Assembly (NCBI GenBank): GCA_022710715.1
Contig: JAKLGJ010000003.1
Coordinates: 358,558 to 422,557 of the forward strand
Length of the DNA: 64,000 nt
From: Candidatus Omnitrophota bacterium
Lineage (GTDB): Bacteria; Omnitrophota; Gorgyraeia; Gygaellales; Profunditerraquicolaceae
Reading direction: 5' to 3'
In this document: positions 46,476 through 61,088 of the stretch, in pieces
Layout: every line of letters begins with the position of its first letter
How positions within the stretch are numbered: the first letter of the stretch is position 1
Notes under the pieces: model-generated
Databases searched by the model: none
What the model was told of the DNA's origin: nothing
The model's input: only the letters and a program-made list of their open reading frames with translations
Program-made: the position numbers and the translations under genes

Positions 46476-46503
46476 TTTGACTTTGCTCATCGCAATGACG
46501 ATT

Positions 46504-47121: not shown

Positions 47122-48774
47122 CTACACCTTGCCCAGCCCGAACGGCGGATACACTTCGGACTCGACCACCACGTCGATGATCGCCGCCTTGCCGCAGGCC
47201 AGCGCTTTCTGGAACACCGCGTCGAAATCTTCGAGCTTCTCCACCCGCGCGCCGAAGGCTTTGCAGGCCTCGGCGTATTTGACGAAATCCGGATTGGTGA
47301 ACTGCATGAACGCCTGATCGTTGAACAGGTTCAACAGGAATTTCTTGATCACGTTGAACTCGCCGTTATCGAAGATCACCCAGATCACCGGGATATTGTA
47401 CTGGATCGCTGTCATCAACTCGAACCCCGCCATCTGATACGCGCCGTCTCCGCAGCCGCAGACCACAACTTTATCCGGATGCGCGCATTTTACGCCGATC
47501 GCGCCGTTGACGTGGCTGGCCATGGGACCGAAGCTGCCGGGATTCTGGTAGATCTGATTTTTGGTCAGGTGCATGTAGCAGTTGAGCCACAACATATGCG
47601 CTCCGGCATCGCCCATCACGAACGAATTCGCGGGCAGGTTGCGGGAGATCGCTTTAGCCAGATCAGCGGGATGTATCTTGGTCCCCGGAGCCTGCACCGG
47701 CCGGTCGAACCAGAGATCTTTTTCAACTTTTTTAGGAGCGACGGTTTTGACTCTTTTGCTCAACGCTTCGGTCAAAGCGATGATCGCCGGCCTGGCGTCG
47801 CTCAACACCGGGTAATCCGCTTTATACACTTTGTCGATCTCATGCCGGTCGATATTGATATGGATGAGGATCTTGTCTTTGAACAGATCCGGTTTGAACC
47901 CGAAGCTCCAGTTCTGGGCAAAAGAATTACCGATGGCCAGGATCACTTTCGCTCCCATGATATATTTGTTGGCGCCGGGATCTCCGGAGGTGCCGAAGAT
48001 GCCTACATTCAACGGATGATCCTCGGGAATCAGGCCTTTGGAATCCATGGTCGCGCTGAAAGGTATCTGGAATTTCTCAACCAGCGTCTGCGCTTCTCTT
48101 TCCCCATGGCTGCGCACCACGCCGTACCCCAGCACCGCGCAAATCGGCTCGTTGTTCTGCAGCGCTTTAGCCAGAGCATCGGCTACGGCGTCGATATCCT
48201 GCTGTCTGGGCAGCACTTTCTTGATATCGACTTTGATCTCGCGGAAATTTTTCACCTGCATGATGGTCACGTCCTTGGGCACGTGGATATGCACCGGGCC
48301 GGGCCGGCCTTCATAAGCCAGATTGATCAATTCTTCCAGGATATCGCAGGTGGAATCCGGGTCTTCGATGACCATGGACTTCTTGGTGGTGGCGTTGAAC
48401 ATCGCCGGAGAATCCGGAGTGCGGGATTTACCGGTAGCTTCGTTCAACGCGCCCTTGCCGCGGTCGCGGGCCGAAGTATAGCCGGAAATCCCCAGAACAG
48501 GCAGTGAATCCGAATACGCCACGGCCAGGCCGGAGAACAAATTGAATTCCCCGGGACCGCCGGTAGCGAAACACACGCCCAGCTTGTCCGAGAACATGGA
48601 GTATCCGCAGGCCATGAACGAAGCCGCCTGCTCGTTACGGATGATCACGGTTTTGATCTGGGGGGATTTCTTGAGCGCGAGGAGCATCGAGCCGTTGACC
48701 TGGCCGGAACCGCCGAATACATGGTCCACGCCGATATGTTCGAGTGTTTTGACGATCGCTTCATTGACATCCAT
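47122..48774 (-). CDS. Thiamine-pyrophosphate-dependent enzyme of the acetolactate synthase large-subunit family
   Basis: N-terminal TPP (Pyr) domain (HVFGGSGQVNGSMLLAL ... GVCFATGGPGEFN). C-terminal TPP-binding motif GDGAYQMAGFELMTAIQYNIPVIWVIFDNGEFN. Confidence 0.8.
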   Translation of the reverse strand: MDVNEAIVKTLEHIGVDHVFGGSGQVNGSMLLALKKSPQIKTVIIRNEQAASFMACGYSMFSDKLGVCFATGGPGEFNLFSGLAVAYSDSLPVLGISGYTSARDRGKGALNEATGKSRTPDSPAMFNATTKKSMVIEDPDSTCDILEELINLAYEGRPGPVHIHVPKDVTIMQVKNFREIKVDIKKVLPRQQDIDAVADALAKALQNNEPICAVLGYGVVRSHGEREAQTLVEKFQIPFSATMDSKGLIPEDHPLNVGIFGTSGDPGANKYIMGAKVILAIGNSFAQNWSFGFKPDLFKDKILIHINIDRHEIDKVYKADYPVLSDARPAIIALTEALSKRVKTVAPKKVEKDLWFDRPVQAPGTKIHPADLAKAISRNLPANSFVMGDAGAHMLWLNCYMHLTKNQIYQNPGSFGPMASHVNGAIGVKCAHPDKVVVCGCGDGAYQMAGFELMTAIQYNIPVIWVIFDNGEFNVIKKFLLNLFNDQAFMQFTNPDFVKYAEACKAFGARVEKLEDFDAVFQKALACGKAAIIDVVVESEVYPPFGLGKV

Positions 48775-48785
48775 GGACGACTCCT

Positions 48786-49010
48786 TTATTTAGGCGGCTG
48801 ATTGAACTTGCCTATTGCCAGTTTCGGCGGGTTTTCCGAGAACATCACCCCGTTGCAGGCGGCGTTGTCCAGGGTGTAGCCGTCGAAGAACAGATAAATG
48901 CGGTCTTTGGGAACTTTGGAAATTTCGGAAAAAATGGTGATGTATTTGTCGGCGAGGACTTTTTTCTGATCGTCGGTCAACTCTAAGGAATGGATGATGA
49001 TTGCGGGCAT
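48786..49010 (-). CDS. Tautomerase-superfamily (4-OT-like) small protein
   Basis: Start taken at MPAIIIHS... (Pro1 after Met removal), with GGAGG upstream. 74 aa in a beta-alpha-beta pattern (MPAIIIHSLELTDDQKKVLADKYITIFSEI). Confidence 0.45.
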   Translation of the reverse strand: MPAIIIHSLELTDDQKKVLADKYITIFSEISKVPKDRIYLFFDGYTLDNAACNGVMFSENPPKLAIGKFNQPPK

Positions 49011-49103
49011 ATGCGCCTCCGAAAGTTTGTGCGGCTGGAACGAATGGGATTGCGCTTGCGGGCCGCCGCAATAAGCGGCAGCCCGCAGCACTCAACGACT
49101 GTA

Positions 49104-49910
49104 TTAGCCTACTTTGATCTTCTTCAGGCCGGCTTTGCCTTCTTTGGCCAGGACATCGAGGACTTCCACGATCTTCTTGCCATACGCGATGGACGATTCG
49201 ACCGATGTTCCGGTGACGAACGGCCAGTCAAAAGCTACGCGCGGATTGTCGCGGGAAGCTTTCTCTTCGGCGATGCATTTACCCTGCGGGCCGACCGCGT
49301 CGCGCACGATATGCTCCAGTGGCCACAAGAAACCGGGAGTATGCACGTCGGTGCCTTTATTATCCGGGCTGGCGCCGTAGAGATCATAGGTAAAGTCCCA
49401 ATCCGGTCCGTAGAAATCCCAGGATGCCGGATGCGCGGTGATCTGCTTGCCGAAGATAACGCTGTTCTTGGTCTTGGGATTGCGGCAATAGACCAAAGTA
49501 GCCACAGAATAGCACAGCGCGCCTACCAGCTTGTCCTGCGCGATAGCGTCGATGATAAGCTTGTGCACGTTATAGTTATTGCACATATCGATCATTGCGC
49601 CCAGGCCGCCGGTCAAAACCAGCGCGTCGTAATTCTTCATATCCGCGTCTTTGAATTTGATCGGATTTGCCCATTCTTTACCGTCGGTCAACTCTTTGAT
49701 GCGCTTGCAGACGTCCGGCGGATTGGTGTTGAATTTGATGATCGGATCGAAGAAGTTCGGATCGCAGCTCACTGCCAGGGGCAGCGGCTTCTTGCCGAAC
49801 CAGGTGGTCAGAGTAACGTCATGGCCGGCCTTCTTGATGATATCCCACGGCGCCTGAAGTTCCTCTCCCCACGTCCCATAGTTTGTCGCACAGATCAATA
49901 CCTTTGCCAT
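49104..49910 (-). CDS. DJ-1/PfpI-superfamily (class I glutamine-amidotransferase-like) protein
   Basis: DALVLTGGLGAMIDMC...KLVGALCYSVATL matches the DJ-1 pattern (GG.GA ... nucleophile elbow C). 268 aa. Confidence 0.5.
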   Translation of the reverse strand: MAKVLICATNYGTWGEELQAPWDIIKKAGHDVTLTTWFGKKPLPLAVSCDPNFFDPIIKFNTNPPDVCKRIKELTDGKEWANPIKFKDADMKNYDALVLTGGLGAMIDMCNNYNVHKLIIDAIAQDKLVGALCYSVATLVYCRNPKTKNSVIFGKQITAHPASWDFYGPDWDFTYDLYGASPDNKGTDVHTPGFLWPLEHIVRDAVGPQGKCIAEEKASRDNPRVAFDWPFVTGTSVESSIAYGKKIVEVLDVLAKEGKAGLKKIKVG

Positions 49911-50002
49911 ATACTCCTCCTCGTGTTACCAATCCTCCATACTGGCTTAAACACCGACGCATCTACGAGCGGCGGCAGCCGGATTGGGTGCTGCGTTGAT
50001 TG

Positions 50003-50371
50003 TTATTTCTTCGCTTTGATCCTCTTTCCCGCGTTGCCGCCCTTGGACATCCAGGGAAAGTCCTTCTTGACCGGGGTGAAAAGATCGATCGCCTCGGTCT
50101 GACCGACGGCCACGAACTCGTGCCAGACGTTCGGCGGGATGAAATAAGCGTCCCCCGCCTTGAGCACGGCTTTTTCTTTGCCGATGAGCATCTTGAAGCC
50201 GCCCTTGATCACGTAGCCGAACTGCTCCTGCTTGTGCTTGTGCCATTTGACCACGCTCTTATCGGCCATGTCCCAGTGCTGGGCATTGAGCTTGTTTCCT
50301 TCGCCCAGGTACTGGCGGATCACCCCTCCTCCCATGTCGAACTTGTCCAGCTTTTTCCTGTATACGTACAT
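50003..50371 (-). CDS. Cupin-domain protein
   Basis: Cupin_2-like motifs HKHKQEQFGYVIKG ... GDAYFIPPNVWHEFVAVG. 122 aa. Confidence 0.6.
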   Translation of the reverse strand: MYVYRKKLDKFDMGGGVIRQYLGEGNKLNAQHWDMADKSVVKWHKHKQEQFGYVIKGGFKMLIGKEKAVLKAGDAYFIPPNVWHEFVAVGQTEAIDLFTPVKKDFPWMSKGGNAGKRIKAKK

Positions 50372-50389
50372 CCGGGACCTCGCTTTCTT

Positions 50390-50956
50390 TCAGGCTTTGT
50401 CGATCATCTCGATTATTTTCCTGGCGAATACGTTGCAATGGCCGCCGCTGCGGGCAGTCACCAGGTCGCCGTCAACCACCACATCCTCATTCACGTACAC
50501 CGCGCCCATATTCTTAGCGTCGCCGAGCAGGTTGTTGTGCACCACCAGCTTCCGGCCGCGCACCAGTTCCGGCGCCGACGCCACCAGCCACAGGCCGTGG
50601 CAGATAATGCCTTTGATGATCTTCTTTTCGGTAAAAGCGCGCTTCAGGAATTCCGTAGCCGGAGAAAGTTTGGCGATATCTTCGGTGTAACGCAACCGGT
50701 CCGCGACCATGCCGGCCGGAACAATGATGGCGGAATAACTCTTCAGGGTAACGTCGTCCATATTCTCGAAACTTTCGCGAACCTCCATCGGCGCGCGGTA
50801 TTCATGCCCCTGGAACGTCAATGAAGCGCAGCCCCAGAGCCGGGTCAGGAAATGCACGTCCAGGCCTTCTTCGGCAAAACGGAATTTATAATACCAGATT
50901 TCAGGCTCGTAATAATCGCCTTCCAGCAGAATGCCGATTTTCTTGCCTTTTAACAT
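50390..50956 (-). CDS. PfpI/DJ-1 family intracellular protease/amidase
   Basis: KKIGILLEGDYYE ... nucleophile elbow IKGIICHGLWLV ... EDVVVDGDLVTARSGG. 188 aa, with GAGGAGG 5 nt upstream. Confidence 0.8.
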   Translation of the reverse strand: MLKGKKIGILLEGDYYEPEIWYYKFRFAEEGLDVHFLTRLWGCASLTFQGHEYRAPMEVRESFENMDDVTLKSYSAIIVPAGMVADRLRYTEDIAKLSPATEFLKRAFTEKKIIKGIICHGLWLVASAPELVRGRKLVVHNNLLGDAKNMGAVYVNEDVVVDGDLVTARSGGHCNVFARKIIEMIDKA

Positions 50957-50973: not shown

Positions 50974-52521
50974 CTACGCAGGGGTGGTACCTTTGGGAAC
51001 GTCCCCTTTGTATTTGACTGCAAGCATGGTGATGTCGTCGGATTGCGCCGCGCCCCTGGCAAAGGAATACACCGCGTCGCGCACTTTGCCGATCATCGTC
51101 TTCATATCGCTGCCGTTGAGCCCGGAGAGCGTGGCCTTCAACCTGGCGTCGGTGAATTGCTGGTGCTCGGGGTCCATCGCTTCGGTAACTCCGTCGGTAT
51201 ACAGCACGATGGATTCACCCGGCCGCATCACTATGCCGTTATTGCCGCACCTGGTCTGTTCCATCACCCCCATGACCATCCCCGCCGGCACTTTGATAAA
51301 ATCAGCCGCCCCGCCGACCTTGATCAATAGCGGCGGGTTGTGCCCGGCGTTGCAGTATTGCAGATTCCCGTTCTCCATATTCAGGATGGCGCAGAACACG
51401 GTGACGAACAGACAGCTCTGGTTATCGGGATAGAGAATATTATTGACCCTGGACAGTATCTCGTTGGTAGGCAACCCTTCCTTGGCCTTGGTCTTGATCA
51501 ACGTCTTGGTGATGGTCATGAACAGCGCGGCGGGCACGCCCTTGCCGGAAACGTCGCCGATAACGAAACACAGGCGTTTGTCGTCCACAAAAAAGAAATC
51601 GTAAAAATCGCCGCCGACCTCTTTAGCCGGGTCCATCATCGCGAAAATCTCGAATTCCTTACGCTGCGGGAACACCTGCGGCAGCATGCTCGCCTGGATC
51701 TCCTGGGCGATGCGCAATTCGCTTTCGATGCGCTCCCGTGACGCGGTTTCCGCTTTGAGATTCTCGATGAAACGTTTGATCGACATCTCGATCAGATCGA
51801 GAGCCATCGCCGGATCATGGGCGAAGAACTTGATCACCTCGTCCCGGCCCATGGTATAGGCTTCCAGGTCCTCCTCGCATACCGCGGAAGCGGTGCGCTG
51901 CTTGAAGGGAGAGAATATCCCCATCTCGCCGATAACTTCCCCCTCCGGGATAACCTTGTTGATCTCGACCAGCCGGATCGCGCCTTTCTTGATATAGAAC
52001 ATCCGGTCAGCTTTGTCTCCGGCCTTGAAAAGCGTATCGCCCTTCTTGAAACGCTCCAGTTTCATGAACGTGATCGGCCAGCGGCAACCGGCAGCTTCCC
52101 CGGGAACGATCGGGGTACTCCCGTTCTTCTTGATCAAGGTCAGAACATTGCGGTCGTTCTCCCTCTTATAACTGACCTGATCCATGAGCTTGCGTATCAT
52201 GTAAATACCCAGGCCGCCGATCTTGCGTTCTTCCATCGGCGCGGTTATATCCGGCGCCGCCAGAGCAAGCGGATCGAACGGGATCCCGGAATCGCTGATC
52301 TGTATCTCCAAAGCGTCCGGTTTATTATCAAAAGCGATCTCCAGTTCGCCGTCTTTGTCCGGATAGGCGTAATTGATCACGTTCACCAGGGCTTCTTCGC
52401 AGGCGAGCTGAATCTTGTTGGCGGCTTCGTTATCGAAACCCTGCCTGGAGGCAGCGCCCCGGATAAAGGAGAACATGGCTTCCAAATGCTGGAGTTTTGC
52501 CGGTAGGACTAATCGTTCCAT
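50974..52521 (-). CDS. Three-domain signalling enzyme: N-terminal RsbW-like anti-sigma-factor-type Ser/Thr kinase (HATPase), central cyclic-nucleotide-binding domain, C-terminal SpoIIE/PP2C phosphatase
   Basis: aa 1-135 has the N-box CEEALVNVINYAYP, the G1 box SDSGIPFDP and the G2 box GGLGIYMIRKLMD. aa 145-265 is a cNMP-binding domain (FKKGDTLFKAGDKADRMFYIKKGAIRL..GEVIGEMGIF...RTASAVC). aa 270-505 is a PP2C domain (IAQEIQASMLP ... GGDFYDF ... GDVSGKGVPAALFM ... LYTDGVTEA). The last 10 codons are encoded by a copy of the 42-kb palindrome arm. Confidence 0.8.
   Translation of the reverse strand: MERLVLPAKLQHLEAMFSFIRGAASRQGFDNEAANKIQLACEEALVNVINYAYPDKDGELEIAFDNKPDALEIQISDSGIPFDPLALAAPDITAPMEERKIGGLGIYMIRKLMDQVSYKRENDRNVLTLIKKNGSTPIVPGEAAGCRWPITFMKLERFKKGDTLFKAGDKADRMFYIKKGAIRLVEINKVIPEGEVIGEMGIFSPFKQRTASAVCEEDLEAYTMGRDEVIKFFAHDPAMALDLIEMSIKRFIENLKAETASRERIESELRIAQEIQASMLPQVFPQRKEFEIFAMMDPAKEVGGDFYDFFFVDDKRLCFVIGDVSGKGVPAALFMTITKTLIKTKAKEGLPTNEILSRVNNILYPDNQSCLFVTVFCAILNMENGNLQYCNAGHNPPLLIKVGGAADFIKVPAGMVMGVMEQTRCGNNGIVMRPGESIVLYTDGVTEAMDPEHQQFTDARLKATLSGLNGSDMKTMIGKVRDAVYSFARGAAQSDDITMLAVKYKGDVPKGTTPA
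50979..51006. repeat. Second copy of one arm of the 60-nt palindrome, 27/28 identical (CAGGGGTGGTACCTTTGGGAACGTCCCC)
   Basis: Read directly from the sequence. It overlaps the 3' end, including the stop codon region, of the fused kinase/cNMP/PP2C gene. It sits 22 nt upstream of the PfpI start. Confidence 0.6.
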
Positions 52522-52538
52522 AATAGATCTGTTGCGAA

Positions 52539-52859
52539 TTACTCGGTATAGGTAGCCTGAATGGTCATGAAGTTATCCAAACCGCTCATTTTGACGACGC
52601 TCAAGATGGCATCCTGCGCCCCGACCAGGAAAATTTGCGCGTCCACGCCGATCTTCTGTTTGGCGAAGATGATCACGCGCAGCCCCGCGCTGGAGATATA
52701 TTCCAGTTCTCTGGCGTGAAACACCAGTCGCGCTATTTTCTGACCGGCGAATTTCTTCAGTTCGCCCTGCAAGCCTTCGGCATTGGTCGCGTCCAGGCGC
52801 CCGCAGAGATCGACTTTCACCACATCGTTGTTGCAGGTGACGGCATATTTTGATTCCAT
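52539..52859 (-). CDS. STAS-domain anti-sigma-factor antagonist
   Basis: 106 aa, with the phospho-Ser region YISSAGLRVIIF. It lies 17 nt upstream of the fused kinase/phosphatase gene and 3 nt downstream of glgX. Confidence 0.8.
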   Translation of the reverse strand: MESKYAVTCNNDVVKVDLCGRLDATNAEGLQGELKKFAGQKIARLVFHARELEYISSAGLRVIIFAKQKIGVDAQIFLVGAQDAILSVVKMSGLDNFMTIQATYTE

Positions 52860-52862
52860 GGA

Positions 52863-55016
52863 TTAAGACTCCTTTCGTGATTTCTTTTTCTTATCCCTGC
52901 CCACCAGGATCACCACTGACCTGGGACCGACTAAAAATTCTTTCTGGCTCGCCAGACCGACCTCTTTGCCGGGCACCCAGATATCGTGCGGGGGCGCGGC
53001 GTCGGTATTGGCAAACACCGCCCACTCCATATAATCGGGGAGCTGCGGCATTTCGAATCCGTGCATCTCCCAGTGCATATTCATTGCGACGTAGACGGAA
53101 TTGTCGTCTACCGTGCCGCCTTTGGCGTGCATACCGCAGAGCATGAACGCCAGACAGCGGCTCTCCTCGGACCAATCCACGTTCCAGGCTTTCTGACCGT
53201 GCCAGGTAATATCGGCGAAACCCGATCCCATATAATCGCGGTTCTGGAAATGTCCGCGGTTGCGCAAAACCGGATGCGCCCGGCGGAAAGCGATCATGTT
53301 CTTGAAAAAATTGAAGAGTTCCTTATTCTTGTCCAGGAGCGACCAATCTATCCAGGAAATCTCATTATCCTGGCAATACGCGTTATTGTTGCCCCACTGG
53401 GTATTGGCCATTTCATCGCCGGCTAAGAGCATCGGCGTGCCCTGACTGACCAGCAGCATCGCCACCGCGTTCTTCATCTGTTTGATACGCAGACGATTAA
53501 CCTGCGGGTCGGTGGATTCGCCTTCCCATCCGCAGTTCCAGCTGTAATTATCGTTGGACCCGTCGCCGTTGTTCTCGCCGTTGGCTTCGTTATGCTTGCC
53601 GTTATAAGCGACCATGTCATACAGGGTGAAACCGTCGTGAGCGGTGACAAAGTTGATCGAAGCGGTGGCGCCTCTGCCCGCCATCTGATACAGGTCGGGA
53701 GATCCCTGCAACCGCTGGGCCATGGCGCCGAGCATATTCGGCTCGCCCTTGAGGAACCTGCGCAGATCATCCCGGTATTTTCCGTTCCATTCCGCCCATC
53801 TGCCCCAGGCCGGGAAACAACCCACCTGATACAACCCGCCGGCGTCCCAGGCTTCGGCGATCAGTTTGCATTTTCCCAGGATAGGGTCGAAAGCCAGGGT
53901 TTCCAGAAGCGGCGGGCTGTGCATGGGCGCGCCGTTCTGATCGCGGCCCAGGATGGACGCGAGATCGAAACGGAAACCGTCCACATGGTAATCCGCGGCC
54001 CAGTAACGCAGGCAGTCCAGGATCATGTTGCGCACGATAGGATTATTACAGTTAAGCGTGTTGCCGCAACCCGAAAAATTGAAATAATACCCCTCGGGCG
54101 TGAGCAGATAATAGGTCTTGTTGTCGATACCCCGGTAGGAAATATACGGACCGCGCTCGTTCCCTTCGGCGGTATGGTTGAACACCACGTCGAGGATGAC
54201 CTCGATGCCGTTCTTGTGCAATTCCCGGATCAGGGTTTTGCATTCATCCACCTGCATGCCGAATTTTCCGGTGGCCGCGAATCCGGCCTTAGGCGCGAAA
54301 AATCCGACGTTGCTGTACCCCCAGTAATTATAAAGCGTTTTGCCGGTGGTCGGGGAAATGCGGGAGTTCTCGAATTCATCGAATTCGTGAATAGGCATCA
54401 GCTCGATACAGTTGATCCCCAGCTCCTTGAGATAGGGGATTTTCTCGCGGATGCCGGAAAAAGTCCCGGGATGCTTGACCCCGGAAGAAGGATTCTGGGT
54501 AAACCCGCGCACGTGCGTTTCATAAAAGATCAGGTCTTCCACCGGCGTTTCCAGGGGATGGTCGTTCTCCCAGTCGAAATCGTCGAAGATGATGCGCGCG
54601 CGGTGCTGGTACATATCGTTCCAGTCCGGCTGCTTGCCCCAGACATCCCTGCCGCCGATGGCTTTGGCGTAGGGATCCATCAGCACCCTGGTCTTGTCGA
54701 AACGATGCCCTTCTCTGGCATCAAAAGGCCCCTCCATATAAAATCCGTATTCCAGATTTTCGTAGTCCAGGTCGAACACCACCATGGTAAATACATTACC
54801 AATGCGGAATTCGTCTTTAAAAGTAATGACGCTGAACGGTTTAGGCTCGTGCTTGTTAAACAGCGCGAGTTTGCAGGAAGTGGCTGACCGGGAATAAACC
54901 GAAAAATTCACTCCCCCGGGAACGATGGACGCGCCGAACGGCAACGGCTTGCCGACGCGCAAGCGGAACTTGCCGCAATCGGATACATGCGTGGGATGCA
55001 GATCGACCCTGAACAT
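52863..55016 (-). CDS. glgX: Glycogen debranching enzyme (GlgX/isoamylase type, GH13)
   Basis: N-terminal CBM48-like region, GH13 region II GFRFDLASILGRD, and further blocks VILDVVFNHT and EAWD. 717 aa. Its start ATG overlaps the stop of the upstream STAS gene (TAATG). Confidence 0.85.
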   Translation of the reverse strand: MFRVDLHPTHVSDCGKFRLRVGKPLPFGASIVPGGVNFSVYSRSATSCKLALFNKHEPKPFSVITFKDEFRIGNVFTMVVFDLDYENLEYGFYMEGPFDAREGHRFDKTRVLMDPYAKAIGGRDVWGKQPDWNDMYQHRARIIFDDFDWENDHPLETPVEDLIFYETHVRGFTQNPSSGVKHPGTFSGIREKIPYLKELGINCIELMPIHEFDEFENSRISPTTGKTLYNYWGYSNVGFFAPKAGFAATGKFGMQVDECKTLIRELHKNGIEVILDVVFNHTAEGNERGPYISYRGIDNKTYYLLTPEGYYFNFSGCGNTLNCNNPIVRNMILDCLRYWAADYHVDGFRFDLASILGRDQNGAPMHSPPLLETLAFDPILGKCKLIAEAWDAGGLYQVGCFPAWGRWAEWNGKYRDDLRRFLKGEPNMLGAMAQRLQGSPDLYQMAGRGATASINFVTAHDGFTLYDMVAYNGKHNEANGENNGDGSNDNYSWNCGWEGESTDPQVNRLRIKQMKNAVAMLLVSQGTPMLLAGDEMANTQWGNNNAYCQDNEISWIDWSLLDKNKELFNFFKNMIAFRRAHPVLRNRGHFQNRDYMGSGFADITWHGQKAWNVDWSEESRCLAFMLCGMHAKGGTVDDNSVYVAMNMHWEMHGFEMPQLPDYMEWAVFANTDAAPPHDIWVPGKEVGLASQKEFLVGPRSVVILVGRDKKKKSRKES

Positions 55017-55357
55017 TAACCCTCCTTGGCCAGCGCCTCGACAGCAGAGGCAACGCAGTCAAACATCTTGAAGAAGTTGCTGAATCCCGTCATCTCCATC
55101 ACGTCTTTAACTTCGTCGGAGAGACCACTCAACACCAGCACTCCGCCCTGGGTGGAAAGCTGTTTTGCCGCCAATAACAAAAGGCGCAAGCCTGCGCTGG
55201 AAACATACTTGCACTCTTTAAGGTCCAGCACCATGGAAATTTTCGAGGAGATCAACGGCATGATCTTATCCTGGGCGTCGCTCACCGTGCCGCCGTCAAG
55301 GCTGCCGGAAAAACTGGTAACAGTCACACCGTTCTGCGTAGTTGTACTGATCTCCAT
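55016..55357 (-). CDS. STAS-domain anti-sigma-factor antagonist
   Basis: Start taken at MEISTTTQNG, with GGAGG upstream. Phospho-Ser region YVSSAGLRLLLLA. Its stop overlaps the glgX start by 1 nt. Confidence 0.75.
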   Translation of the reverse strand: MEISTTTQNGVTVTSFSGSLDGGTVSDAQDKIMPLISSKISMVLDLKECKYVSSAGLRLLLLAAKQLSTQGGVLVLSGLSDEVKDVMEMTGFSNFFKMFDCVASAVEALAKEG

Positions 55358-55383: not shown

Positions 55384-55457
55384 CCTTGCGCAATTCTCCG
55401 CCACATGGCGGACACTGACGCAATGCCGATCTGCGTCAGGTGCGATCTGCGCAAGGG
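55384..55457 (-). promoter_or_regulatory. Multi-stem RNA/DNA structure upstream of the STAS-glgX-STAS-kinase/phosphatase operon
   Basis: The outer 10-bp stem cccttgcgca (55384-55393) / tgcgcaaggg (55448-55457) encloses two inner hairpins: ccgcc-acat-ggcgg (around 55399-55411), and ctgacgca-atgccgatc-tgcgtcag (55415-55439). No adjacent U-run, so it is not a canonical terminator. Confidence 0.3.
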
Positions 55458-55480
55458 GGTGCCAAAGGGGATATTTTATT

Positions 55481-57298
55481 TTACACCGGCACGATCCTGA
55501 CCTTGATCTTGGGCCGGTAATTCACGTTAGGGATCTGAACAGTCAGATTCGCCGCGTCGAAATTCTTCCAGGGATTGCCGTCTACCCAGACGTCGGAAAT
55601 GCGAATGCTGCCCGCAGGCAGGATATCCGGCTGCACGCGTAACACGTCACCGGGGAATCCGTGCGGCAACGGCTTGAAATACAGATCCAGCGGTTGTTTG
55701 GTATACAACAGATTCTGATAGATCTGCGCCAGATAGCACAATTCAATGGAATGATAACAGGCCATGGAATGGCTGCCCTTCAGACGCTCCGTTCCCAGCA
55801 AAAACGGCAAGCCGTTGTTCAACACGTTGAAATAGACCGCGCCGTCGTCATGGTCCAGATAAAAAGCGTTGTAGAACGCCGCGGATTCCCGTCCCAGACG
55901 CAGATATTCGGGATCTTTGAGTACGCCGTACATGATATCGTACGCGAGTATCCCCTGCTCCTGCTGCCACCAGGCTTTGCGGTCATGCCAGACATGGCGG
56001 TAGCATTTCTCTCCGGGAGCCAGTTCGCGCTCCATCACGTCGTACCAGCCGCCGCGCTGCACGTCCATGCCCACGGTAGGCATGATCTGGGCGATCTTTC
56101 TGGCAAATTCGACGTATTCCTTTCGGGGAGTGAGACTGTTGATACGCAGCAGATTCCAGGCGATCTTGAGGTTATGGCCGATGACGCCGCGGTTCTGCTG
56201 CCATCCCCAGGTCTTGTCGTGGCTCCAATCTTCGTGGAATTTCTCCTGCACGAACGGCGAATGCGCGTAATCCTGAAAATGATCGGTAATGCAATCCGCG
56301 GTATACTTGAGAAAATCGCGGTACTTGGGATCGCCGGTAGCCAGCCAGAGATTGATCAGATACGCCGGAGCATGATCTCCTACCGAGTTCCAGTTCTTTC
56401 TGCCGCGGTTGCGGCCCAGGCTTTCGGCCCGGGGATTCAAGGCGATGGGGTCGACATGCGAAAAATAGCCGCCTTTTTCCTTATCCAGGAAGAAACGATC
56501 GAACAGATCGATGGTCATCTTGATATCTTTCATGATCGCCGGATCGCCGGTAATGCGGTAGGTCTGGGTAGGACCGGCCAGAGCATAGATCTGTTCGTAC
56601 GCGGGAATAGCGTCGTAATCGTCGCCGAATTCCGAAGCGAATACTTTATGCTCCTGGGCATGCTTGACATCGATGCCGTGATACCAGTACACCACATTCT
56701 CGTCGGTATCGTAGAAACGCATGTGATCGCGCAGGTACTGCGTGCCTTTTTCCGCGGCTTCCAGGAAACGGTCTTCGCCGGTCAAAAGGAACGCCGACGC
56801 CATGCCGTAAACCATACGCGAGATAGTATCGGTTTCCTGACGGTGTTCCGGTTTGCGTTCGCCGGTCAAAGAGATCATGGTGCGGTAATTCTTGTAATCG
56901 ATCGTATCGGGACTGCCGAATTCCGCTTTGATATAGAAATCCGCGATGCTCACCGCCTGCTTCACCCACCAGTCGGCTTCTTCGAAACGGTATTTACCCA
57001 GCCCTTCCCCGGGGAACACCAGCACTTTGGCGTCAAAATCAAATCCTTTATTTTCCGGGTAAAAGATCCCCAGGACAAACAAATACTGTCCCGGAACCAT
57101 CAAAGAGTCGATTTTTCCGGTATAATCGCACCAGCCCTCATGAAGGTTACGCGGCCCCTTGGCATAGGCAGTAGGTGTCATCCGCGCGGAAAATTCACGC
57201 CCGTCCGTGGTTTTCATGGTAAATGTTTTTTTAGCAGAATCATAACTCGTTACGTAGCCAGCGATTGTATCAGAGAACTCAAAACGTATCTCATTCAT
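55481..57298 (-). CDS. N-acylglucosamine 2-epimerase (AGE)-superfamily / six-hairpin (alpha/alpha)6 glycosidase-like protein with an N-terminal extension
   Basis: The C-terminal ~400 aa resemble the AGE/cellobiose-2-epimerase fold (KIAWNLLRI, GGWYDVMERE, RKAWWQQEQGILAYD). The N-terminal ~200 aa are unassigned. Confidence 0.45.
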   Translation of the reverse strand: MNEIRFEFSDTIAGYVTSYDSAKKTFTMKTTDGREFSARMTPTAYAKGPRNLHEGWCDYTGKIDSLMVPGQYLFVLGIFYPENKGFDFDAKVLVFPGEGLGKYRFEEADWWVKQAVSIADFYIKAEFGSPDTIDYKNYRTMISLTGERKPEHRQETDTISRMVYGMASAFLLTGEDRFLEAAEKGTQYLRDHMRFYDTDENVVYWYHGIDVKHAQEHKVFASEFGDDYDAIPAYEQIYALAGPTQTYRITGDPAIMKDIKMTIDLFDRFFLDKEKGGYFSHVDPIALNPRAESLGRNRGRKNWNSVGDHAPAYLINLWLATGDPKYRDFLKYTADCITDHFQDYAHSPFVQEKFHEDWSHDKTWGWQQNRGVIGHNLKIAWNLLRINSLTPRKEYVEFARKIAQIMPTVGMDVQRGGWYDVMERELAPGEKCYRHVWHDRKAWWQQEQGILAYDIMYGVLKDPEYLRLGRESAAFYNAFYLDHDDGAVYFNVLNNGLPFLLGTERLKGSHSMACYHSIELCYLAQIYQNLLYTKQPLDLYFKPLPHGFPGDVLRVQPDILPAGSIRISDVWVDGNPWKNFDAANLTVQIPNVNYRPKIKVRIVPV

Positions 57299-57495
57299 CG
57301 ATGTTCCCCCTTTGTATGGTTTGATGGTTATCAGGAAGAAAGGTTAGACAATAAAAAAGCCGAGACAGGATTGTCCCAGCATGAATTAGAGCATATTTTC
57401 CGGATAAACGTATTTCGTAAGGCCTGCATAATCCTCCTGCCAAGCGAGAACTGCGTTTTCCTACAATATACCTGCTTACCTAATTGTAACTTGCT

Positions 57496-57523
57496 ATTAT
57501 ATCATTTTTCTTTGAATTGACAA
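57496..57523 (-). promoter_or_regulatory. Sigma70-type promoter TTGTCA-N16-TATAAT for the AGE-family gene
   Basis: Minus-strand -35 is the complement of 57518-57523, and -10 is the complement of 57496-57501. This would give a ~190-nt 5' UTR. Confidence 0.4.
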
Positions 57524-57551: not shown

Positions 57552-58178
57552 TTAATCATTCAAATAATAGTTGCCTTTTCCCGCCCCCATGCCGGTCATG
57601 CCGGAACCGCCTTTTCTTGTTCCCGGCTTGGCCCCGTGCTCGCGTAAATAAGCGGCGATTTCCGTATTCTGACGGAACACGGCCATGGACAGAGGCGTTG
57701 CTCCGGTATCGGTCCGGGCATTGACATCCGCGCCGCTCTCTACCAGGATCTTCAGCGCTGCAAAATGGCCGCTTTGACCTTTAAAAGCGGCGAAATGCAG
57801 CGGAGTCGAATCGTTCTGCGTACGGGCATTGACGTCCGCGCCGCGGTCGATCAGAATGCGGGCGCATTCAGGCTGCGCCTGGGAAGCCGCGACATGTAAA
57901 GGAGTGCCGCCGTTATTATTGCGGATATTGGGATCGGCTTTATAGGTGTCCAGCAACAGCTTCAGTACTTCGGGCTGTCCCCTGCCCACGGCCCAGTGCA
58001 CCGGGGTTTTCCCGATATCATCTTTTAACGTCAGCAAAGTGATATTTTTATCCAATAACGCTTTTACCCTGGCGATATCCCCGCTCTTGGCAGCCTCATG
58101 GATCTCGGCTGCGCAGGCCGGAGAAACCGCTACACACCAGATAACCGCCGCTATAAGATACCGGACAGCCTGTCGCAT
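57552..58178 (-). CDS. Secreted ankyrin-repeat protein (about 5 ANK repeats)
   Basis: Start taken at MRQAVRYLIAAVIWCVAVSPACA (signal peptide, with GAGGAGG upstream). ANK consensus G.TPLH.AA..G....V..LL..GAD.NA is repeated (GKTPVHWAV, GGTPLHVAA, STPLHFAA, GATPLSMAV). Confidence 0.75.
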   Translation of the reverse strand: MRQAVRYLIAAVIWCVAVSPACAAEIHEAAKSGDIARVKALLDKNITLLTLKDDIGKTPVHWAVGRGQPEVLKLLLDTYKADPNIRNNNGGTPLHVAASQAQPECARILIDRGADVNARTQNDSTPLHFAAFKGQSGHFAALKILVESGADVNARTDTGATPLSMAVFRQNTEIAAYLREHGAKPGTRKGGSGMTGMGAGKGNYYLND

Positions 58179-58191
58179 GTCTTCCTCCTCT

Positions 58192-60102: not shown

Positions 60103-61088
60103 GGCTCGTCCTGAACCGGGATGGAAAAAGAGTCAAACGCAGGCGCCGCTTTGATCAAACCTTTCCGCGCAAGCTCGCCCGAGACGCGCAGGTAATCGTT
60201 CTGATTCAACCGTCCCAGCGCCGCTGCATCGTTGCCGGGCAGGATAAGATCTTTCATCCGTTCGAGCATCCAGCGCTGATGCACGCGATTGGCCGGCACG
60301 TGCGCCGTTTGCATGTACCGCAGCACGATATCCAGCGTTTCATCCGGATGTTCAAAAGCATACCGCCATCCCGCAAGCGAAGCCCGGACAAAAGCCGCGG
60401 CGGCCTGCGGCGCATCGCGCAGCGTTTCCTCCCGGCAATAAATTCCGTCTTCCGGGAAATTCAGCCCGTAATCGCTGAAGAAAAACGTGGAGAGCTCGTC
60501 GGAATTGAACCCGGCGTTGAGTAGAGTGTGATACTCGTTATACCACATCGCCGAGATCACATCCACGCCGCCCATCAGGAACAGATTGACGGTATACCCC
60601 TGCGGAACGATCTGCGCCTGCACCCCGTTATCGCGCAGGAATGCCTGCGGCTGCAACTGCAAATCGCCTTCCCACAGACTGACCTTTTTTCCGGCCATAT
60701 CCTGTGGTTTGAGGATCCCGCTGGACTTCCTGGCCACCAGCATCAACGCCGAACGCTGGACGATCTGGCTGATGTTGACGATTTTCATTCCTTCGGCGCG
60801 ACGGCGCAGCGCCGGCGAAAGCCACATCACGCCGAAATCCGCGGTGCCGGCAGCCAGCATTTCTTCGGGAGGATTCTCCGGGCCGCCTTCCAGGATGGTC
60901 ACATCCAGACCGGCAGCTTTATACAGCCCTTTTTCATACGCGACGTAATAGCCGGCGAACTGGGCCTGCGGTTTCCACAGCGGGATGAACGAAACTTTTT
61001 TGAGCTGCGCCTGTTCGGCAGATACGGCGGGACAAAACGAGAGAGTAATAAGTAAGCAGAAAATACGCAGGAACATGCGGGATCTCAT
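60099..61088 (-). CDS. Periplasmic substrate-binding protein of the NMT1/THI5 (SsuA/TauA-like) family
   Basis: Start taken at MRSRMFLRIFCLLITLSFCPAVSA (signal peptide). Type-II SBP pattern (VSFIPLWKPQAQFAGYYVAYEKGLYKAAGLDVTILEGG). Its stop overlaps the Cache-HAMP-PP2C start (ATGA). Confidence 0.55.
   Translation of the reverse strand: MRSRMFLRIFCLLITLSFCPAVSAEQAQLKKVSFIPLWKPQAQFAGYYVAYEKGLYKAAGLDVTILEGGPENPPEEMLAAGTADFGVMWLSPALRRRAEGMKIVNISQIVQRSALMLVARKSSGILKPQDMAGKKVSLWEGDLQLQPQAFLRDNGVQAQIVPQGYTVNLFLMGGVDVISAMWYNEYHTLLNAGFNSDELSTFFFSDYGLNFPEDGIYCREETLRDAPQAAAAFVRASLAGWRYAFEHPDETLDIVLRYMQTAHVPANRVHQRWMLERMKDLILPGNDAAALGRLNQNDYLRVSGELARKGLIKAAPAFDSFSIPVQDEP

What the first reader, a model, noticed from the sequence alone, without database searches (positions are those of the whole stretch)
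50974..55357. Operon STAS - GlgX - STAS - fused [RsbW-like kinase / cNMP-binding / PP2C phosphatase]
Four co-directional genes are tightly packed. The first STAS stop overlaps the glgX start (TAATG at 55016), the next gap is 3 nt, and the last is 17 nt. The last gene combines a partner-switching kinase (N-box EEALVNVINYA, G-boxes DSGIPF and GGLGIYMIRKLMD) with an opposing SpoIIE/PP2C phosphatase in one polypeptide, separated by a cyclic-nucleotide-binding domain. This arrangement suggests a cNMP-gated partner switch. A GH13 glycogen debranching enzyme sits between the two STAS genes, and no sigma factor is nearby. The output may therefore be metabolic (glycogen turnover) rather than transcriptional. 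In Bacillus-type systems the RsbW kinase and RsbU phosphatase are separate proteins, and I am not aware of a characterised HATPase-cNMP-PP2C fusion.
Basis: partly seen in the sequence, partly recalled or inferred. Interest (0 to 1): 0.8.

Follow-up and report, generated by a model that had tools for sequence, protein, structure and literature searches.

The report
cNMP-gated partner switch beside glycogen debrancher
The four genes are real, but they form an Omnitrophota version of the long-known, still unexplained cyanobacterial icfG cluster (two small phospho-switch proteins flanking an isoamylase); here the kinase and phosphatase are fused around a cyclic-nucleotide sensor.

Summary
STAS (55016-55357), GlgX (52863-55016), STAS (52539-52859) and a 515-aa HATPase_c_2 / cNMP_binding / SpoIIE protein (50974-52521) lie on the minus strand with the stated junctions. 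All domains score far above the Pfam cut-offs.

The fusion is not an artefact. The same four genes occur on 11 independent contigs, and dozens of Omnitrophota and Aminicenantes homologues share the architecture.

The arrangement is not new in kind. [AGE-like epimerase]-STAS-isoamylase-STAS-kinase/PP2C is the Synechocystis icfG cluster (slr1855-slr1861), characterised biochemically in 1999. I found this cluster in at least eight phyla. Its enzymes are 66-88% identical across them, while the sensor domain on the phosphatase varies (dCache-HAMP, FHA-PAS, cNMP).

The fused kinase-sensor-phosphatase order matches Vibrio fischeri SypE, with cNMP in place of REC. The cNMP domain always travels with the PP2C and joins it through one long predicted helix. 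It therefore most likely gates the phosphatase.

Whether the output is GlgX itself or an unlinked sigma factor is open. Synechocystis Slr1861 is an anti-SigC factor.

Verdict: a new variant of a known kind, of moderate interest.

The parts
50974..52521 (-). Fusion protein, 515 aa: RsbW-like Ser kinase, cNMP-binding domain and SpoIIE/PP2C phosphatase.
   Evidence: Pfam domains. A 52-sequence alignment shows all catalytic residues invariant. The AF2 model has pLDDT 85.7. The same 515-aa gene call appears on independent contigs.
52126..52521 (-). Kinase domain (aa 1-132). The N box includes E43 and N47, the G1 box D77-x-G79, and the G2 box G102-G105. A disordered tether (aa 133-150) follows.
   Evidence: RsbW structure 6m36 matches aa 5-122. 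In L005 this part is a separate 139-aa gene.
51814..52071 (-). cNMP-binding beta-barrel (aa 151-236) with the phosphate-binding cassette G198-E199-M200-G201...R209-T210-A211.
   Evidence: PF00027, E = 1.6e-14. The cassette aligns with GELSIF..RTSSAVC of the PDB entries 4cyd/4byy, annotated there as CRP/FNR-family transcription regulators. G198, E199 and R209 are invariant in 52 sequences.
51685..51813 (-). A single long predicted helix (aa 237-279) joins the cNMP domain to the PP2C. It carries the ERIESELRIAxEIQ motif, which the neighbouring HAMP-PP2C shares.
   Evidence: DSSP on the model gives H237-279. Residues 244-504 are 53% identical to the dCache-HAMP-PP2C protein.
50977..51684 (-). PP2C/SpoIIE phosphatase domain (aa 280-515) with invariant metal-binding Asp residues D305, D308, D323, D443, D495 and D496.
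   Evidence: PF07228, E = 4.7e-49. Invariant columns. PDB matches are Rv1364c, RssB and SpoIIE.
52539..52859 (-). STAS2, 106 aa. It belongs to the orthologue group found downstream of GlgX, and its conserved Ser lies in YISSAGLR.
   Evidence: TIGR00377. The alignment covers 13 loci.
52863..55016 (-). GlgX / isoamylase-type debranching enzyme, 717 aa (CBM48, GH13, ISOA C-terminal domain). Catalytic motifs GFRFDLA, AEAWD and AHDGF are present.
   Evidence: The best solved relative is plant ISA1 (2e-189), with the motifs aligned.
55016..55357 (-). STAS1, 113 aa. It belongs to the orthologue group found upstream of GlgX, is translationally coupled to glgX (TAATG), and has its conserved Ser in YVSSAGLR.
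55481..57298 (-). AGE-superfamily (alpha/alpha)6 sugar epimerase/isomerase-like protein, 605 aa, with extra N- and C-terminal beta domains. It is the first gene of the conserved cluster and the counterpart of Slr1855.
   Evidence: PF07221. Homologues are 66-89% identical in many phyla. The model was matched with Foldseek to glucose and cellobiose 2-epimerases. Synteny.
57359..57523 (-). Sigma-70-like promoter (TTGTCA-16-TATAAT with TG), followed about 115 nt later by a GC-rich hairpin plus U-run, upstream of the AGE-like gene. This is a possible leader or attenuator.
   Evidence: Both elements recur, with different stem sequences in L001 and L002, in window, L001, L002 and L005. No Rfam family matches.
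58192..60102 (-). dCache-HAMP-SpoIIE membrane phosphatase, a close paralogue of the fusion's PP2C. In other phyla it is the cluster's own phosphatase.
60099..61172 (-). NMT1/THI5-like solute-binding protein. Its gene overlaps the start of the dCache-PP2C gene by 4 nt.
   Evidence: The same pairing sits directly upstream of the Cache-PP2C in L010 and L027.
57552..58250 (-). Ankyrin-repeat protein lying between the Cache-PP2C and the AGE-like gene. The listed TTG start overlaps the Cache-PP2C gene, so the true start is uncertain.
   Evidence: An ankyrin gene also lies near the cluster in L001, L081 and L083.
47122..50956 (-). Tightly packed downstream genes: DJ-1/PfpI (50390-50956), cupin (50003-50371), ThiJ-like (49104-49910), a 101-aa ORF (48786-49091) and an ALS-like ThDP enzyme (47122-48774).
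   Evidence: The same genes follow the cluster in L001, L002 and L005. Cupin, ThiJ and ALS follow it in Riflebacteria. DJ-1 sits next to the AGE gene in the Cyanobacteriota MAG and in Nostoc.
31634..33883 (-). CHASE2 plus class III adenylate/guanylate cyclase, a possible source of the cNMP signal. This is context only, not part of the operon.
   Evidence: PF00211, E = 3.5e-27.

Best explanation
This is an Omnitrophota version of the icfG-type carbohydrate partner-switching cluster, AGE-like enzyme - STAS1 - isoamylase GlgX - STAS2 - kinase - PP2C. Two formerly adjacent genes, an RsbW-like kinase and a cNMP-PP2C phosphatase, have fused into one protein.

**Shown**
- All parts are present and catalytically intact.
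- The cluster order is conserved in many phyla.
- Fused and split forms both exist.

**Inferred mechanism**
1. The N-terminal kinase domain, held on a flexible tether, phosphorylates the conserved Ser of STAS1 and STAS2 (xSAGL).
2. The C-terminal PP2C removes that phosphate.
3. cAMP or cGMP binds the central domain. Through the long helix that runs into the PP2C regulatory region, most likely within a dimer, this changes phosphatase activity. The cNMP level therefore sets the phosphorylation state of the two STAS proteins.
4. A paralogous membrane phosphatase, dCache-HAMP-PP2C with an NMT1-like binding protein, feeds a second, extracytoplasmic signal into the same STAS pool.

**Most likely output (inferred; the weakest step).** The unphosphorylated STAS proteins act after translation on the co-encoded glucan enzymes, GlgX and possibly the AGE-like epimerase. 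The target would then not be a dedicated sigma factor. This couples a second messenger to glycogen or maltodextrin processing.
For: **Domains and catalytic residues.**

**The fusion is real.** The identical four-gene arrangement, including the 515-aa call, occurs on 11 independent contigs. More than 50 homologues share the architecture.

**The fusion arose from neighbouring genes.** In the related Omnitrophota locus L005 the kinase (139 aa) and the cNMP-PP2C are separate adjacent genes in the same cluster. Many cNMP-PP2C proteins of about 385 aa are 60-72% identical to the fusion.

**cNMP belongs to the PP2C.** Related architectures are cNMP-PP2C-kinase, REC-cNMP-PP2C, CHASE5-HAMP-cNMP-PP2C and dCache-HAMP-cNMP-PP2C. 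The model shows one continuous helix (237-279) from the cNMP domain into the PP2C. The kinase, by contrast, hangs on a disordered linker at 135-145.

**Both STAS groups keep the SpoIIAA-Ser58-equivalent Ser**.

**The two local PP2Cs are close paralogues.** They are 53% identical, against 33% for the PP2C of the window's other module.

**The cluster is conserved.** It occurs in Omnitrophota, Riflebacteria, Desulfuromonadales/Geobacteraceae, Fusobacteria, Bacteroidota, Gemmatimonadota, a Cyanobacteriota MAG and Nostoc. A STAS or kinase gene is always adjacent to glgX, and no sigma gene appears in any locus.

**Literature**
- Slr1861 phosphorylates Slr1856 and Slr1859, and IcfG dephosphorylates Slr1856 only (PMC12329169, PMC11619594, both citing Shi 1999).
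- The cluster isoamylase Slr1857/GlgX2 is inactive on its own in vitro and its role is 'elusive' (bioRxiv 10.1101/2022.11.21.517384).
- SypE/SypA shows that a kinase-sensor-PP2C fusion can drive a STAS protein with a non-sigma output (PMC3610818, PMC8256260).
- Streptomyces GlgX is allosterically activated by c-di-GMP (PMC9530166).

**A cNMP source exists.** A class III cyclase is encoded in the window.
Against: - No experiment or multimer model links either STAS protein to GlgX.
- No STAS-GlgX fusion protein appears among the 120 best GlgX homologues.
- STAS1 is missing in the Gemmatimonadota locus and STAS2 in the Fusobacteria loci, so neither is strictly required next to glgX.
[quoted passage not shown] Fused kinases can still do this; CrsR of Shewanella is my recollection and was not checked here.
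- The same fusion occurs in Aminicenantes with a single STAS and no GlgX. The fusion is therefore a general module, not specific to glycogen.
- The nucleotide (cAMP or cGMP), the sign of its effect and dimerisation are all unproven.
- The gene before the fusion has no obvious Shine-Dalgarno sequence in the 17-nt gap.
Confidence: 0.45

Rival explanations
1. The switch core is the same: a cNMP-gated phosphatase and a tethered kinase acting on two STAS proteins. The output, however, is transcriptional. The kinase domain sequesters an unlinked alternative sigma factor and releases it when unphosphorylated STAS binds. GlgX, the AGE-like enzyme and DJ-1 sit in the operon only because they belong to the regulon, or are co-expressed with it.
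For: Synechocystis Slr1861, the kinase of the equivalent cluster, binds SigC and the STAS protein Ssr1600, and sigC is not in the cluster (PMC12329169). RsbW and SpoIIAB are the closest named families for aa 1-130 (PDB 6m36). The window genome carries at least three STAS and two RsbW-like genes with no adjacent sigma factor, so unlinked targets are normal in this genome.
Against: In that study the SigC antagonist was Ssr1600. The cluster STAS proteins Slr1856 and Slr1859 still have no known sigma target. No sigma gene lies in any of at least 14 cluster loci from eight or more phyla. The interleaved, translationally coupled STAS-glgX-STAS order is conserved far beyond what co-regulation alone usually preserves. 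Tethering the kinase to a dimeric phosphatase may hinder sigma binding; this last point is inference.
Confidence: 0.33
2. The neighbourhood has no regulatory meaning. GlgX and the AGE-like gene are metabolic passengers that stay beside a signalling module through operon inertia or joint horizontal transfer, and the switch controls something unrelated.
For: AGE, GlgX and DJ-1 are 66-88% identical across distant phyla, which is compatible with recent transfer of the block as a unit. The fusion plus one STAS works without GlgX in Aminicenantes. The Synechocystis glgX2 knockout has no phenotype.
Against: The signalling genes change between phyla (different sensor domains, split or fused, rearranged in Nostoc). 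Even so, a STAS or kinase gene always remains next to glgX. Mutants of icfG and slr1859 have glucose and carbon phenotypes (PMC12329169, PMC11619594).
Confidence: 0.12
3. The fused ORF is an assembly or frameshift artefact that joins a kinase gene to a cNMP-PP2C gene.
For: A split form exists in a related genome (L005). The junction (aa 133-150) is poorly conserved and predicted to be disordered.
Against: The ORF is uninterrupted. The same 515-aa product is called on 11 contigs from independent metagenomes. Dozens of proteins of 513-545 aa, 46-71% identical, from different phyla share the architecture.
Confidence: 0.01

Closest known systems
Synechocystis sp. PCC 6803 icfG gene cluster: slr1855 (AGE-like), slr1856 (STAS), slr1857 (GlgX2 isoamylase), slr1859 (STAS), slr1860 (IcfG, PP2C) and slr1861 (RsbW-like kinase)
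   Same: Gene content and the order AGE-like - STAS - isoamylase - STAS - phosphatase/kinase are the same (PMC8670252; PMC12329169). I read the same cluster directly in a Cyanobacteriota MAG (L081) and, in rearranged form, in Nostoc (L086). In those loci AGE and GlgX are 68-71% identical to the window proteins. There are two phosphorylatable STAS proteins, one kinase, a PP2C, no sigma gene in the cluster and a link to sugar metabolism.
   Different: In Synechocystis the kinase and phosphatase are separate proteins in the order PP2C then kinase, and IcfG has no reported cNMP domain. Here they are fused as kinase-cNMP-PP2C, and a second dCache-HAMP-PP2C lies upstream. The organism is a non-photosynthetic candidate phylum. 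Orthology to the Synechocystis proteins themselves rests on published annotation; I could not fetch their sequences.
Vibrio fischeri SypE / SypA
   Same: SypE is a single polypeptide with an N-terminal RsbW/HPK-like Ser kinase, a central regulatory domain and a C-terminal PP2C phosphatase. It acts on a single-domain STAS protein, and the output is polysaccharide-related with no sigma target identified (PMC3610818; PMC8256260).
   Different: The central domain of SypE is a phospho-accepting REC domain fed by a sensor kinase. Here it is a cNMP-binding domain, so the input is a diffusible second messenger. SypE has one STAS substrate, this system has two. The genomic context is the syp exopolysaccharide locus rather than a glycogen debranching enzyme.
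Other fused kinase/phosphatase partner-switch proteins: M. tuberculosis Rv1364c (PP2C-kinase-STAS), and P. aeruginosa HsbR and Shewanella CrsR (REC-PP2C-kinase)
   Same: PP2C and an RsbW-like kinase sit in one chain. Rv1364c is the best PDB match to the PP2C part (3ke6, 1.1e-17).
   Different: The domain order is reversed (PP2C before kinase) and the sensor differs (PAS or REC). The architectures of HsbR and CrsR are from my own knowledge and were not checked here. A permuted cNMP-PP2C-kinase form does exist in metagenomes (P0122, P0123).
Bacillus RsbU/RsbV/RsbW and SpoIIE/SpoIIAA/SpoIIAB
   Same: The same three protein families are involved and the STAS Ser is in the same position.
   Different: The Bacillus components are separate proteins and the sigma gene lies in the operon. 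No cNMP input and no enzyme gene is interleaved.
c-di-GMP-activated GlgX of Streptomyces venezuelae
   Same: It is a precedent for a bacterial GlgX being the direct end-point of second-messenger signalling (PMC9530166). Its structure 7u39 matches the window GlgX at 2.6e-152.
   Different: In Streptomyces the nucleotide binds GlgX itself. Here any control would pass through a kinase/phosphatase and STAS proteins. The c-di-GMP-binding motif was not examined in the window GlgX.

Membership tests
Partner-switching module (RsbW/RsbV/RsbU type) | Single-domain STAS antagonist with the conserved phosphorylatable Ser | tested here: met
   PF01740 and TIGR00377 score above their cut-offs for both STAS proteins. 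The Ser of xSAGL aligns with SpoIIAA S58 in all STAS1 and STAS2 orthologues.
Partner-switching module (RsbW/RsbV/RsbU type) | GHKL-type Ser kinase (HATPase_c_2) with N, G1 and G2 boxes | tested here: met
   PF13581 scores 106.9 bits against a cut-off of 27.4. E43, N47, D77 and G102-G105 are invariant.
Partner-switching module (RsbW/RsbV/RsbU type) | PPM/SpoIIE-family phosphatase with metal-binding aspartates | tested here: met
   PF07228 scores 167 bits. D305, D308, D323, D443, D495 and D496 are invariant.
Partner-switching module (RsbW/RsbV/RsbU type) | A target protein (classically a sigma factor) that the kinase sequesters and the STAS protein releases | tested here: not met
   No sigma-factor domain occurs in any of the 51 gene calls of the 64-kb window or in the cluster loci. 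An unlinked target cannot be excluded.
icfG-type cluster (Synechocystis slr1855-slr1861) | Gene content and order: AGE-like, STAS, isoamylase, STAS, then PP2C and RsbW-like kinase | tested here: met
   The Synechocystis order comes from published annotation. The same order was read directly in a Cyanobacteriota MAG.
icfG-type cluster (Synechocystis slr1855-slr1861) | Sequence orthology to Slr1855, Slr1856, Slr1857, Slr1859, Slr1860 and Slr1861 themselves | not tested
As proxies, the Nostoc GlgX P0501 is 71% identical and the Cyanobacteriota MAG AGE P0377 is 68% identical.
icfG-type cluster (Synechocystis slr1855-slr1861) | The kinase phosphorylates both STAS proteins and the phosphatase acts on the first only | not testable with these tools
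   This is biochemistry from Shi et al. 1999, as cited in PMC12329169 and PMC11619594.
SypE-like bifunctional regulator | Order: N-terminal Ser kinase, central regulatory domain, C-terminal PP2C | tested here: met
   for the window protein; PMC3610818 for SypE.
SypE-like bifunctional regulator | The central domain is a response-regulator receiver (REC) | tested here: not met
   The central domain is cNMP_binding (PF00027) with no Response_reg hit. The protein therefore works like SypE but is not a member.
GlgX glycogen debranching enzyme (TIGR02100, GH13 isoamylase type) | Score above the equivalog cut-off, a CBM48 domain and the GH13 catalytic Asp/Glu/Asp motifs | tested here: met
   The score is 706.7 bits against 640.9. 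The motifs GFRFDLA, AEAWD and AHDGF align to active plant ISA1. Enzyme activity is untested, and the Synechocystis cluster paralogue was inactive in vitro.
Cyclic-nucleotide-binding domain (PF00027) | Beta-barrel with a phosphate-binding cassette: Gly-Glu, then Arg-Thr/Ser-Ala | tested here: met
   The score is 54.1 bits against 27.5. G198, E199, R209, T210 and A211 are conserved and align to the cassette of PDB entries 4cyd/4byy. Ligand identity and binding are not testable here.

The most novel reading that the evidence does not exclude
The STAS proteins are direct, phosphorylation-dependent regulators of the isoamylase, and perhaps of the AGE-like epimerase. The pathway would then read: cNMP to a Ser kinase/phosphatase, to a phospho-switch protein, to a glycogen-degrading enzyme. 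That would be a bacterial counterpart of the classical cAMP-kinase-glycogenolysis cascade and a partner switch whose 'partner' is an enzyme. It would also explain why Synechocystis GlgX2 (Slr1857) is inactive when assayed alone. It would redefine the icfG cluster, known since the 1990s, as a pan-bacterial glucan-processing control unit with interchangeable sensor domains (cNMP, dCache-HAMP, FHA-PAS).
Probability: 0.3. Interest if true: 0.8.

Novelty: new variant of a known kind. Interest (0 to 1): 0.5.

Why it matters
The role of the isoamylase inside the Synechocystis icfG partner-switching cluster is still undefined; a 2025 preprint calls the function of GlgX2 'elusive'. This window and its relatives show three things.
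- The cluster is not a cyanobacterial or photosynthesis-specific oddity. It is found in anaerobic candidate phyla, Bacteroidota, Geobacteraceae, Fusobacteria and others.
- Its enzyme core (AGE-like, GlgX, DJ-1) is unusually conserved.
- Its sensory input is modular.

The Omnitrophota form names a concrete, testable input, cAMP or cGMP. It also packs kinase and phosphatase into one soluble protein. That makes it a convenient system for in-vitro reconstitution of the whole switch and for asking whether STAS proteins act on GlgX.

Tried and rejected
- **Sigma-54 promoter upstream of STAS1.** TGGCAC-N4-TTGC at 55451-55464 has a spacing one base short of consensus. At least one match arises in 28 of 100 shuffles, and the motif is absent from related loci. 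I treat it as chance.
- **Rfam.** No family reaches its gathering score anywhere in the window. The only weak hit in the AGE leader is L20_leader (23 bits against 58.7), treated as chance. The leader as a whole is not unusually stable (z = -0.9).
- **Rosetta-stone test for STAS-GlgX.** None of the 120 best GlgX homologues carries a STAS domain.
- **Shi et al. 1999 (PMC93959).** The paper is not held, so its content is cited second-hand through PMC12329169 and PMC11619594.
- **Look-up of P0001.** The 500-aa alternative start call failed. The source was identified through GlgX P0389 instead. The 515-aa start is supported by the conserved N-terminus MERLxLPAKLExLE.
- **AGE-like protein as a glycoside hydrolase.** Weak GH127, GH76 and GH9 hits exist. 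This reading is not favoured, because the best fold matches are glucose, cellobiose and mannose 2-epimerases/isomerases.
- **Antisense ORF.** The longer ORF at 55661-57520 (619 aa) was rejected as a shadow ORF, based on Pfam and codon scoring.
- **Not attempted.** The cyclase's substrate specificity (AC or GC) and cAMP/cGMP discrimination by the binding domain.

Full report
**Observation**

The four ORFs lie on the minus strand exactly as described.

| Gene | Coordinates | Length |
|---|---|---|
| STAS1 | 55016-55357 | 113 aa |
| GlgX | 52863-55016 | 717 aa |
| STAS2 | 52539-52859 | 106 aa |
| Fusion protein | 50974-52521 | 515 aa |

Reading the sequence confirms the one-base TAATG overlap, the 3-nt gap and the 17-nt gap.

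Pfam places HATPase_c_2 at residues 6-131 (E = 9.5e-31), cNMP_binding at 156-235 (1.6e-14) and SpoIIE at 313-504 (4.7e-49) in the last protein. It finds a STAS domain in both small proteins, and CBM_48, Alpha-amylase and ISOA1-3_C in the large one. NCBIfam names the large protein GlgX above the curated cut-off (TIGR02100, 706.7 bits against 640.9) and both small proteins anti-sigma-factor antagonists (TIGR00377).

**Is the fusion real?**

Yes, on three lines of evidence.
- The ORF is uninterrupted.
- The same STAS / GlgX / STAS / 515-aa arrangement is called independently on 11 contigs from different metagenomes, the longest of them 1.62 Mb and from Candidatus Omnitrophota.
- Dozens of proteins of 510-545 aa, 46-71% identical, share the three-domain architecture. 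They come mostly from Omnitrophota, with a group at about 50% identity from Aminicenantes and Acidobacteriota.

I searched 1.84 billion cluster representatives with residues 1-265. Only three full-length clusters (P0026, P0058, P0177) and one fragment (P0121) have kinase and cNMP domains contiguous in this order (P0177 checked with Pfam). The architecture is therefore rare but genuine.

**How the fusion arose, and what the cNMP domain belongs to**

In the related Omnitrophota locus L005 the same cluster encodes a separate 139-aa kinase, followed by a separate cNMP-PP2C gene. Many cNMP-PP2C proteins of about 385 aa are 60-72% identical to residues 130-515 of the fusion.

Other relatives have these architectures:
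- cNMP-PP2C-kinase (P0122, P0123)
- REC-cNMP-PP2C (P0170)
- CHASE5-HAMP-cNMP-PP2C (P0153)
- dCache-HAMP-cNMP-PP2C (P0171)

The constant unit is cNMP-PP2C, and the kinase is an add-on.

An AlphaFold2 model built from 52 sequences (mean pLDDT 85.7) agrees. The kinase (1-132) is attached by a low-confidence linker (135-145). The cNMP barrel (154-225) runs through one continuous helix (237-279) into the PP2C (290-504). That helix and the PP2C are 53% identical to the helix and PP2C of the neighbouring dCache-HAMP-SpoIIE protein.

**Catalytic competence**

- Kinase: E43, N47, D77 and G102-G105 are invariant in 52 homologues.
- Phosphatase: D305, D308, D323, D443, D495 and D496 are invariant.
- cNMP pocket: G198, E199 and R209 are invariant, and T210 and A211 nearly so.
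- The phosphate-binding cassette GEMGIFSPFKQRTASAVC aligns with GELSIFDPG-PRTSSAVC of PDB entries 4cyd/4byy, annotated as CRP/FNR-family regulators.
- Both STAS proteins, and all their orthologues in 13 other loci, keep the Ser that aligns with SpoIIAA Ser58.
- GlgX keeps the GH13 motifs. Its best solved relative is plant isoamylase 1 (2e-189), ahead of bacterial GlgX and TreX.

**Surroundings**

The unit is larger than the finding. The full minus-strand order is:

1. NMT1-like binding protein (60099-61172)
2. dCache-HAMP-SpoIIE (58192-60102)
3. ankyrin protein
4. a promoter-like site and a hairpin with a U-run
5. a 605-aa AGE-superfamily protein (55481-57298)
6. the four genes of the finding
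7. DJ-1/PfpI, cupin, ThiJ-like, a 101-aa ORF and an ALS-like ThDP enzyme, tightly packed
8. a glyoxalase-fold protein

The window also holds a second, complete partner-switching module (FecR-like, STAS, kinase, CHASE2-SpoIIE; 13862-17516) and a third STAS gene (62315-62689). It further encodes a CHASE2 class III nucleotide cyclase (31634-33883) and a glycogen-phosphorylase-family protein (4614-6632). No sigma factor is present.

**Related loci**

I scanned one genome per species with an alignment of the fusion and then ran tblastn with the window's proteins. The order AGE-like - STAS1 - GlgX - STAS2 - kinase - PP2C appears in Omnitrophota, Riflebacteria, an unclassified deltaproteobacterium, Geobacteraceae and Desulfuromonadaceae. 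Fusobacteria have STAS1 - GlgX - kinase.

Starting from homologues of the AGE-like protein and of GlgX added further loci:
- A Cyanobacteriota MAG has ankyrin, cupin, DJ-1, AGE, STAS, isoamylase, STAS, kinase, FHA-PAS-SpoIIE and dCache-HAMP-SpoIIE.
- A Bacteroidota MAG has the cluster, with glyoxalase, DJ-1 and ankyrin genes nearby.
- A Gemmatimonadota genome has AGE, GlgX, STAS and kinase.
- Nostoc has MFS, DJ-1, AGE, STAS and GlgX, with STAS, kinase, SpoIIE and CHASE2 genes 6 kb away.

The enzymes are strikingly conserved across these phyla: AGE 59-88% (the 59% is a 129-residue partial match), GlgX 66-85% and DJ-1 64-83%. The STAS proteins (30-78%) and the sensor domains vary. No locus contains a sigma-factor gene. 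In Aminicenantes the fusion occurs with a single STAS and no GlgX.

**What is known**

The same gene set is the Synechocystis sp. PCC 6803 icfG cluster.
- Another paper lists slr1861 (kinase), slr1856 and slr1859 (antagonists), icfG/slr1860 (phosphatase) and slr1857 (isoamylase) (PMC12329169).
- According to those papers and PMC11619594, which cite Shi, Bischoff and Kennelly 1999 and Gonzalez et al. 2001, Slr1861 phosphorylates both STAS proteins. IcfG dephosphorylates Slr1856 but not Slr1859. Mutants of icfG and slr1859 fail on glucose under carbon limitation.
- In 2025 Slr1861 was shown to be an anti-SigC factor whose antagonist is a different STAS protein, Ssr1600. The targets of Slr1856 and Slr1859 remain unknown.
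- A 2025 preprint reports that GlgX2 (Slr1857) has no debranching activity in vitro and no knockout phenotype, and that its function is 'elusive'.

The kinase-sensor-PP2C order is that of Vibrio fischeri SypE, which carries a central REC domain. SypE phosphorylates and dephosphorylates the STAS protein SypA, and the output is not a sigma factor. Streptomyces GlgX is activated directly by c-di-GMP. My full-text searches found no described kinase-cNMP-SpoIIE protein. A 2010 survey noted PP2C-cNMP fusions in myxobacteria only.

**Mechanism**

Three statements are well supported: this is a partner-switching cassette of the icfG type; the kinase and phosphatase act on STAS1 and STAS2; and the cNMP domain is wired to the phosphatase.

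Three further statements are inferred.
- cNMP binding changes phosphatase output through the helical linker, probably in a dimer.
- The dCache-HAMP-PP2C paralogue supplies a second input.
- The two STAS proteins may be matched to different phosphatases, as the IcfG/Slr1856 specificity hints.

The output is the open step. I favour direct action of the STAS proteins on the co-encoded glucan enzymes. The reasons are the interleaved, translationally coupled order conserved in at least eight phyla, the absence of sigma genes in every locus, and the in-vitro inactivity of the Synechocystis cluster isoamylase when assayed alone. The Slr1861-SigC result keeps a transcriptional output a serious rival. 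I have no physical evidence for STAS-GlgX contact and found no fusion protein that would imply it.

**Verdict**

The arrangement is a variant of a cluster known since the 1990s and of the SypE design, so it is not a new kind of system. Two points appear to be undescribed: the cNMP-centred fusion, and the evidence that the icfG-type cluster is widespread outside cyanobacteria with interchangeable sensors.

Noticed in passing
window 13862-17516 (-): A second, independent partner-switching module: FecR-like (16542-17516), STAS (16140-16532), RsbW-like kinase (15712-16131) and CHASE2-SpoIIE phosphatase (13862-15715). GreA lies upstream and there is no sigma factor. Its PP2C is only 33% identical to that of the fusion.
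   Followed up: partly
window 62315-62689 (-): A third, orphan STAS-domain gene (124 aa; PF01740, E = 3.6e-17).
   Followed up: no
window 31634-35804 (-): A CHASE2 class III adenylate/guanylate cyclase (31634-33883), preceded by an unannotated 345-aa ORF and a FecR-like protein. The FecR-like/CHASE2 pairing matches the one in the second partner-switch module. This cyclase is a possible source of the cNMP sensed by the fusion. Its AC or GC specificity was not determined.
   Followed up: partly
window 57359-57523 (-); L001 ~1100-1330, L002 ~150-340, L005 ~60-340: Upstream of the AGE-like gene lies a strong sigma-70-like promoter (TTGTCA-16-TATAAT with an extended TG). About 115 nt later comes a GC-rich hairpin with a U-run. 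Both recur in four Omnitrophota loci, and the stems in L001 and L002 have different sequences. This may be a transcription attenuator or an unknown riboregulator. A 32-codon ORF with a good RBS overlaps the hairpin in the window. No Rfam family matches.
   Followed up: partly
window 55481-57298 (-), and P0269-P0388: The 605-aa AGE-like protein is 66-89% identical across Omnitrophota, Elusimicrobiota, Desantisbacteria, Bacteroidota, Latescibacterota, Gemmatimonadota, Cyanobacteriota and Riflebacteria. This is unusually high for an enzyme with no NCBIfam model. It points to extreme constraint or to horizontal spread of the whole block. The model shows extra N- and C-terminal beta domains around an epimerase-like barrel.
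   Followed up: partly
window 42059-50956 (-): Aldehyde- and carbonyl-handling genes are concentrated beside the cluster: three DJ-1/PfpI/ThiJ-family genes (50390-50956, 49104-49910, 43496-44083), a glyoxalase/VOC protein (46504-47091), a cupin and an ALS-like ThDP enzyme. An MFS transporter sits next to one DJ-1 gene. The order MFS - DJ-1 - AGE - STAS - GlgX is also seen in Nostoc (L086). This suggests a link between glucan breakdown and reactive-carbonyl detoxification.
   Followed up: partly
window 55661-57520 (+): A 619-aa antisense ORF is longer than the real AGE-like gene it shadows (605 aa). It is a trap for length-based gene callers.
   Followed up: yes
window 21121-37604 (-): A 2596-aa TPS-domain (two-partner secretion) exoprotein with a Laminin_G_3 domain (21121-28911) lies next to a ShlB/FhaC-type transporter (29028-30731). 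A second such transporter is further along at 35865-37604.
   Followed up: no
window 4614-6632 (-): A glycogen/maltodextrin phosphorylase-family protein (PF00343) is embedded among PAS histidine kinases and response regulators, so another glucan enzyme sits in a signalling-rich neighbourhood.
   Followed up: no
window 55451-55464 (-): A sigma-54-like TGGCAC-N4-TTGC motif lies between the AGE-like gene and STAS1. The spacing is one base short of consensus, the motif is absent from related loci, and chance matches are frequent (28 of 100 shuffles).
   Followed up: yes
L085 (Aminicenantes) 7649-11401: In Aminicenantes the STAS plus kinase-cNMP-PP2C pair stands alone. A PrsW-like protease gene on the opposite strand follows, and then an ECF-type sigma factor gene about 1.3 kb downstream of the pair. 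That sigma factor is a conceivable target there.
   Followed up: no
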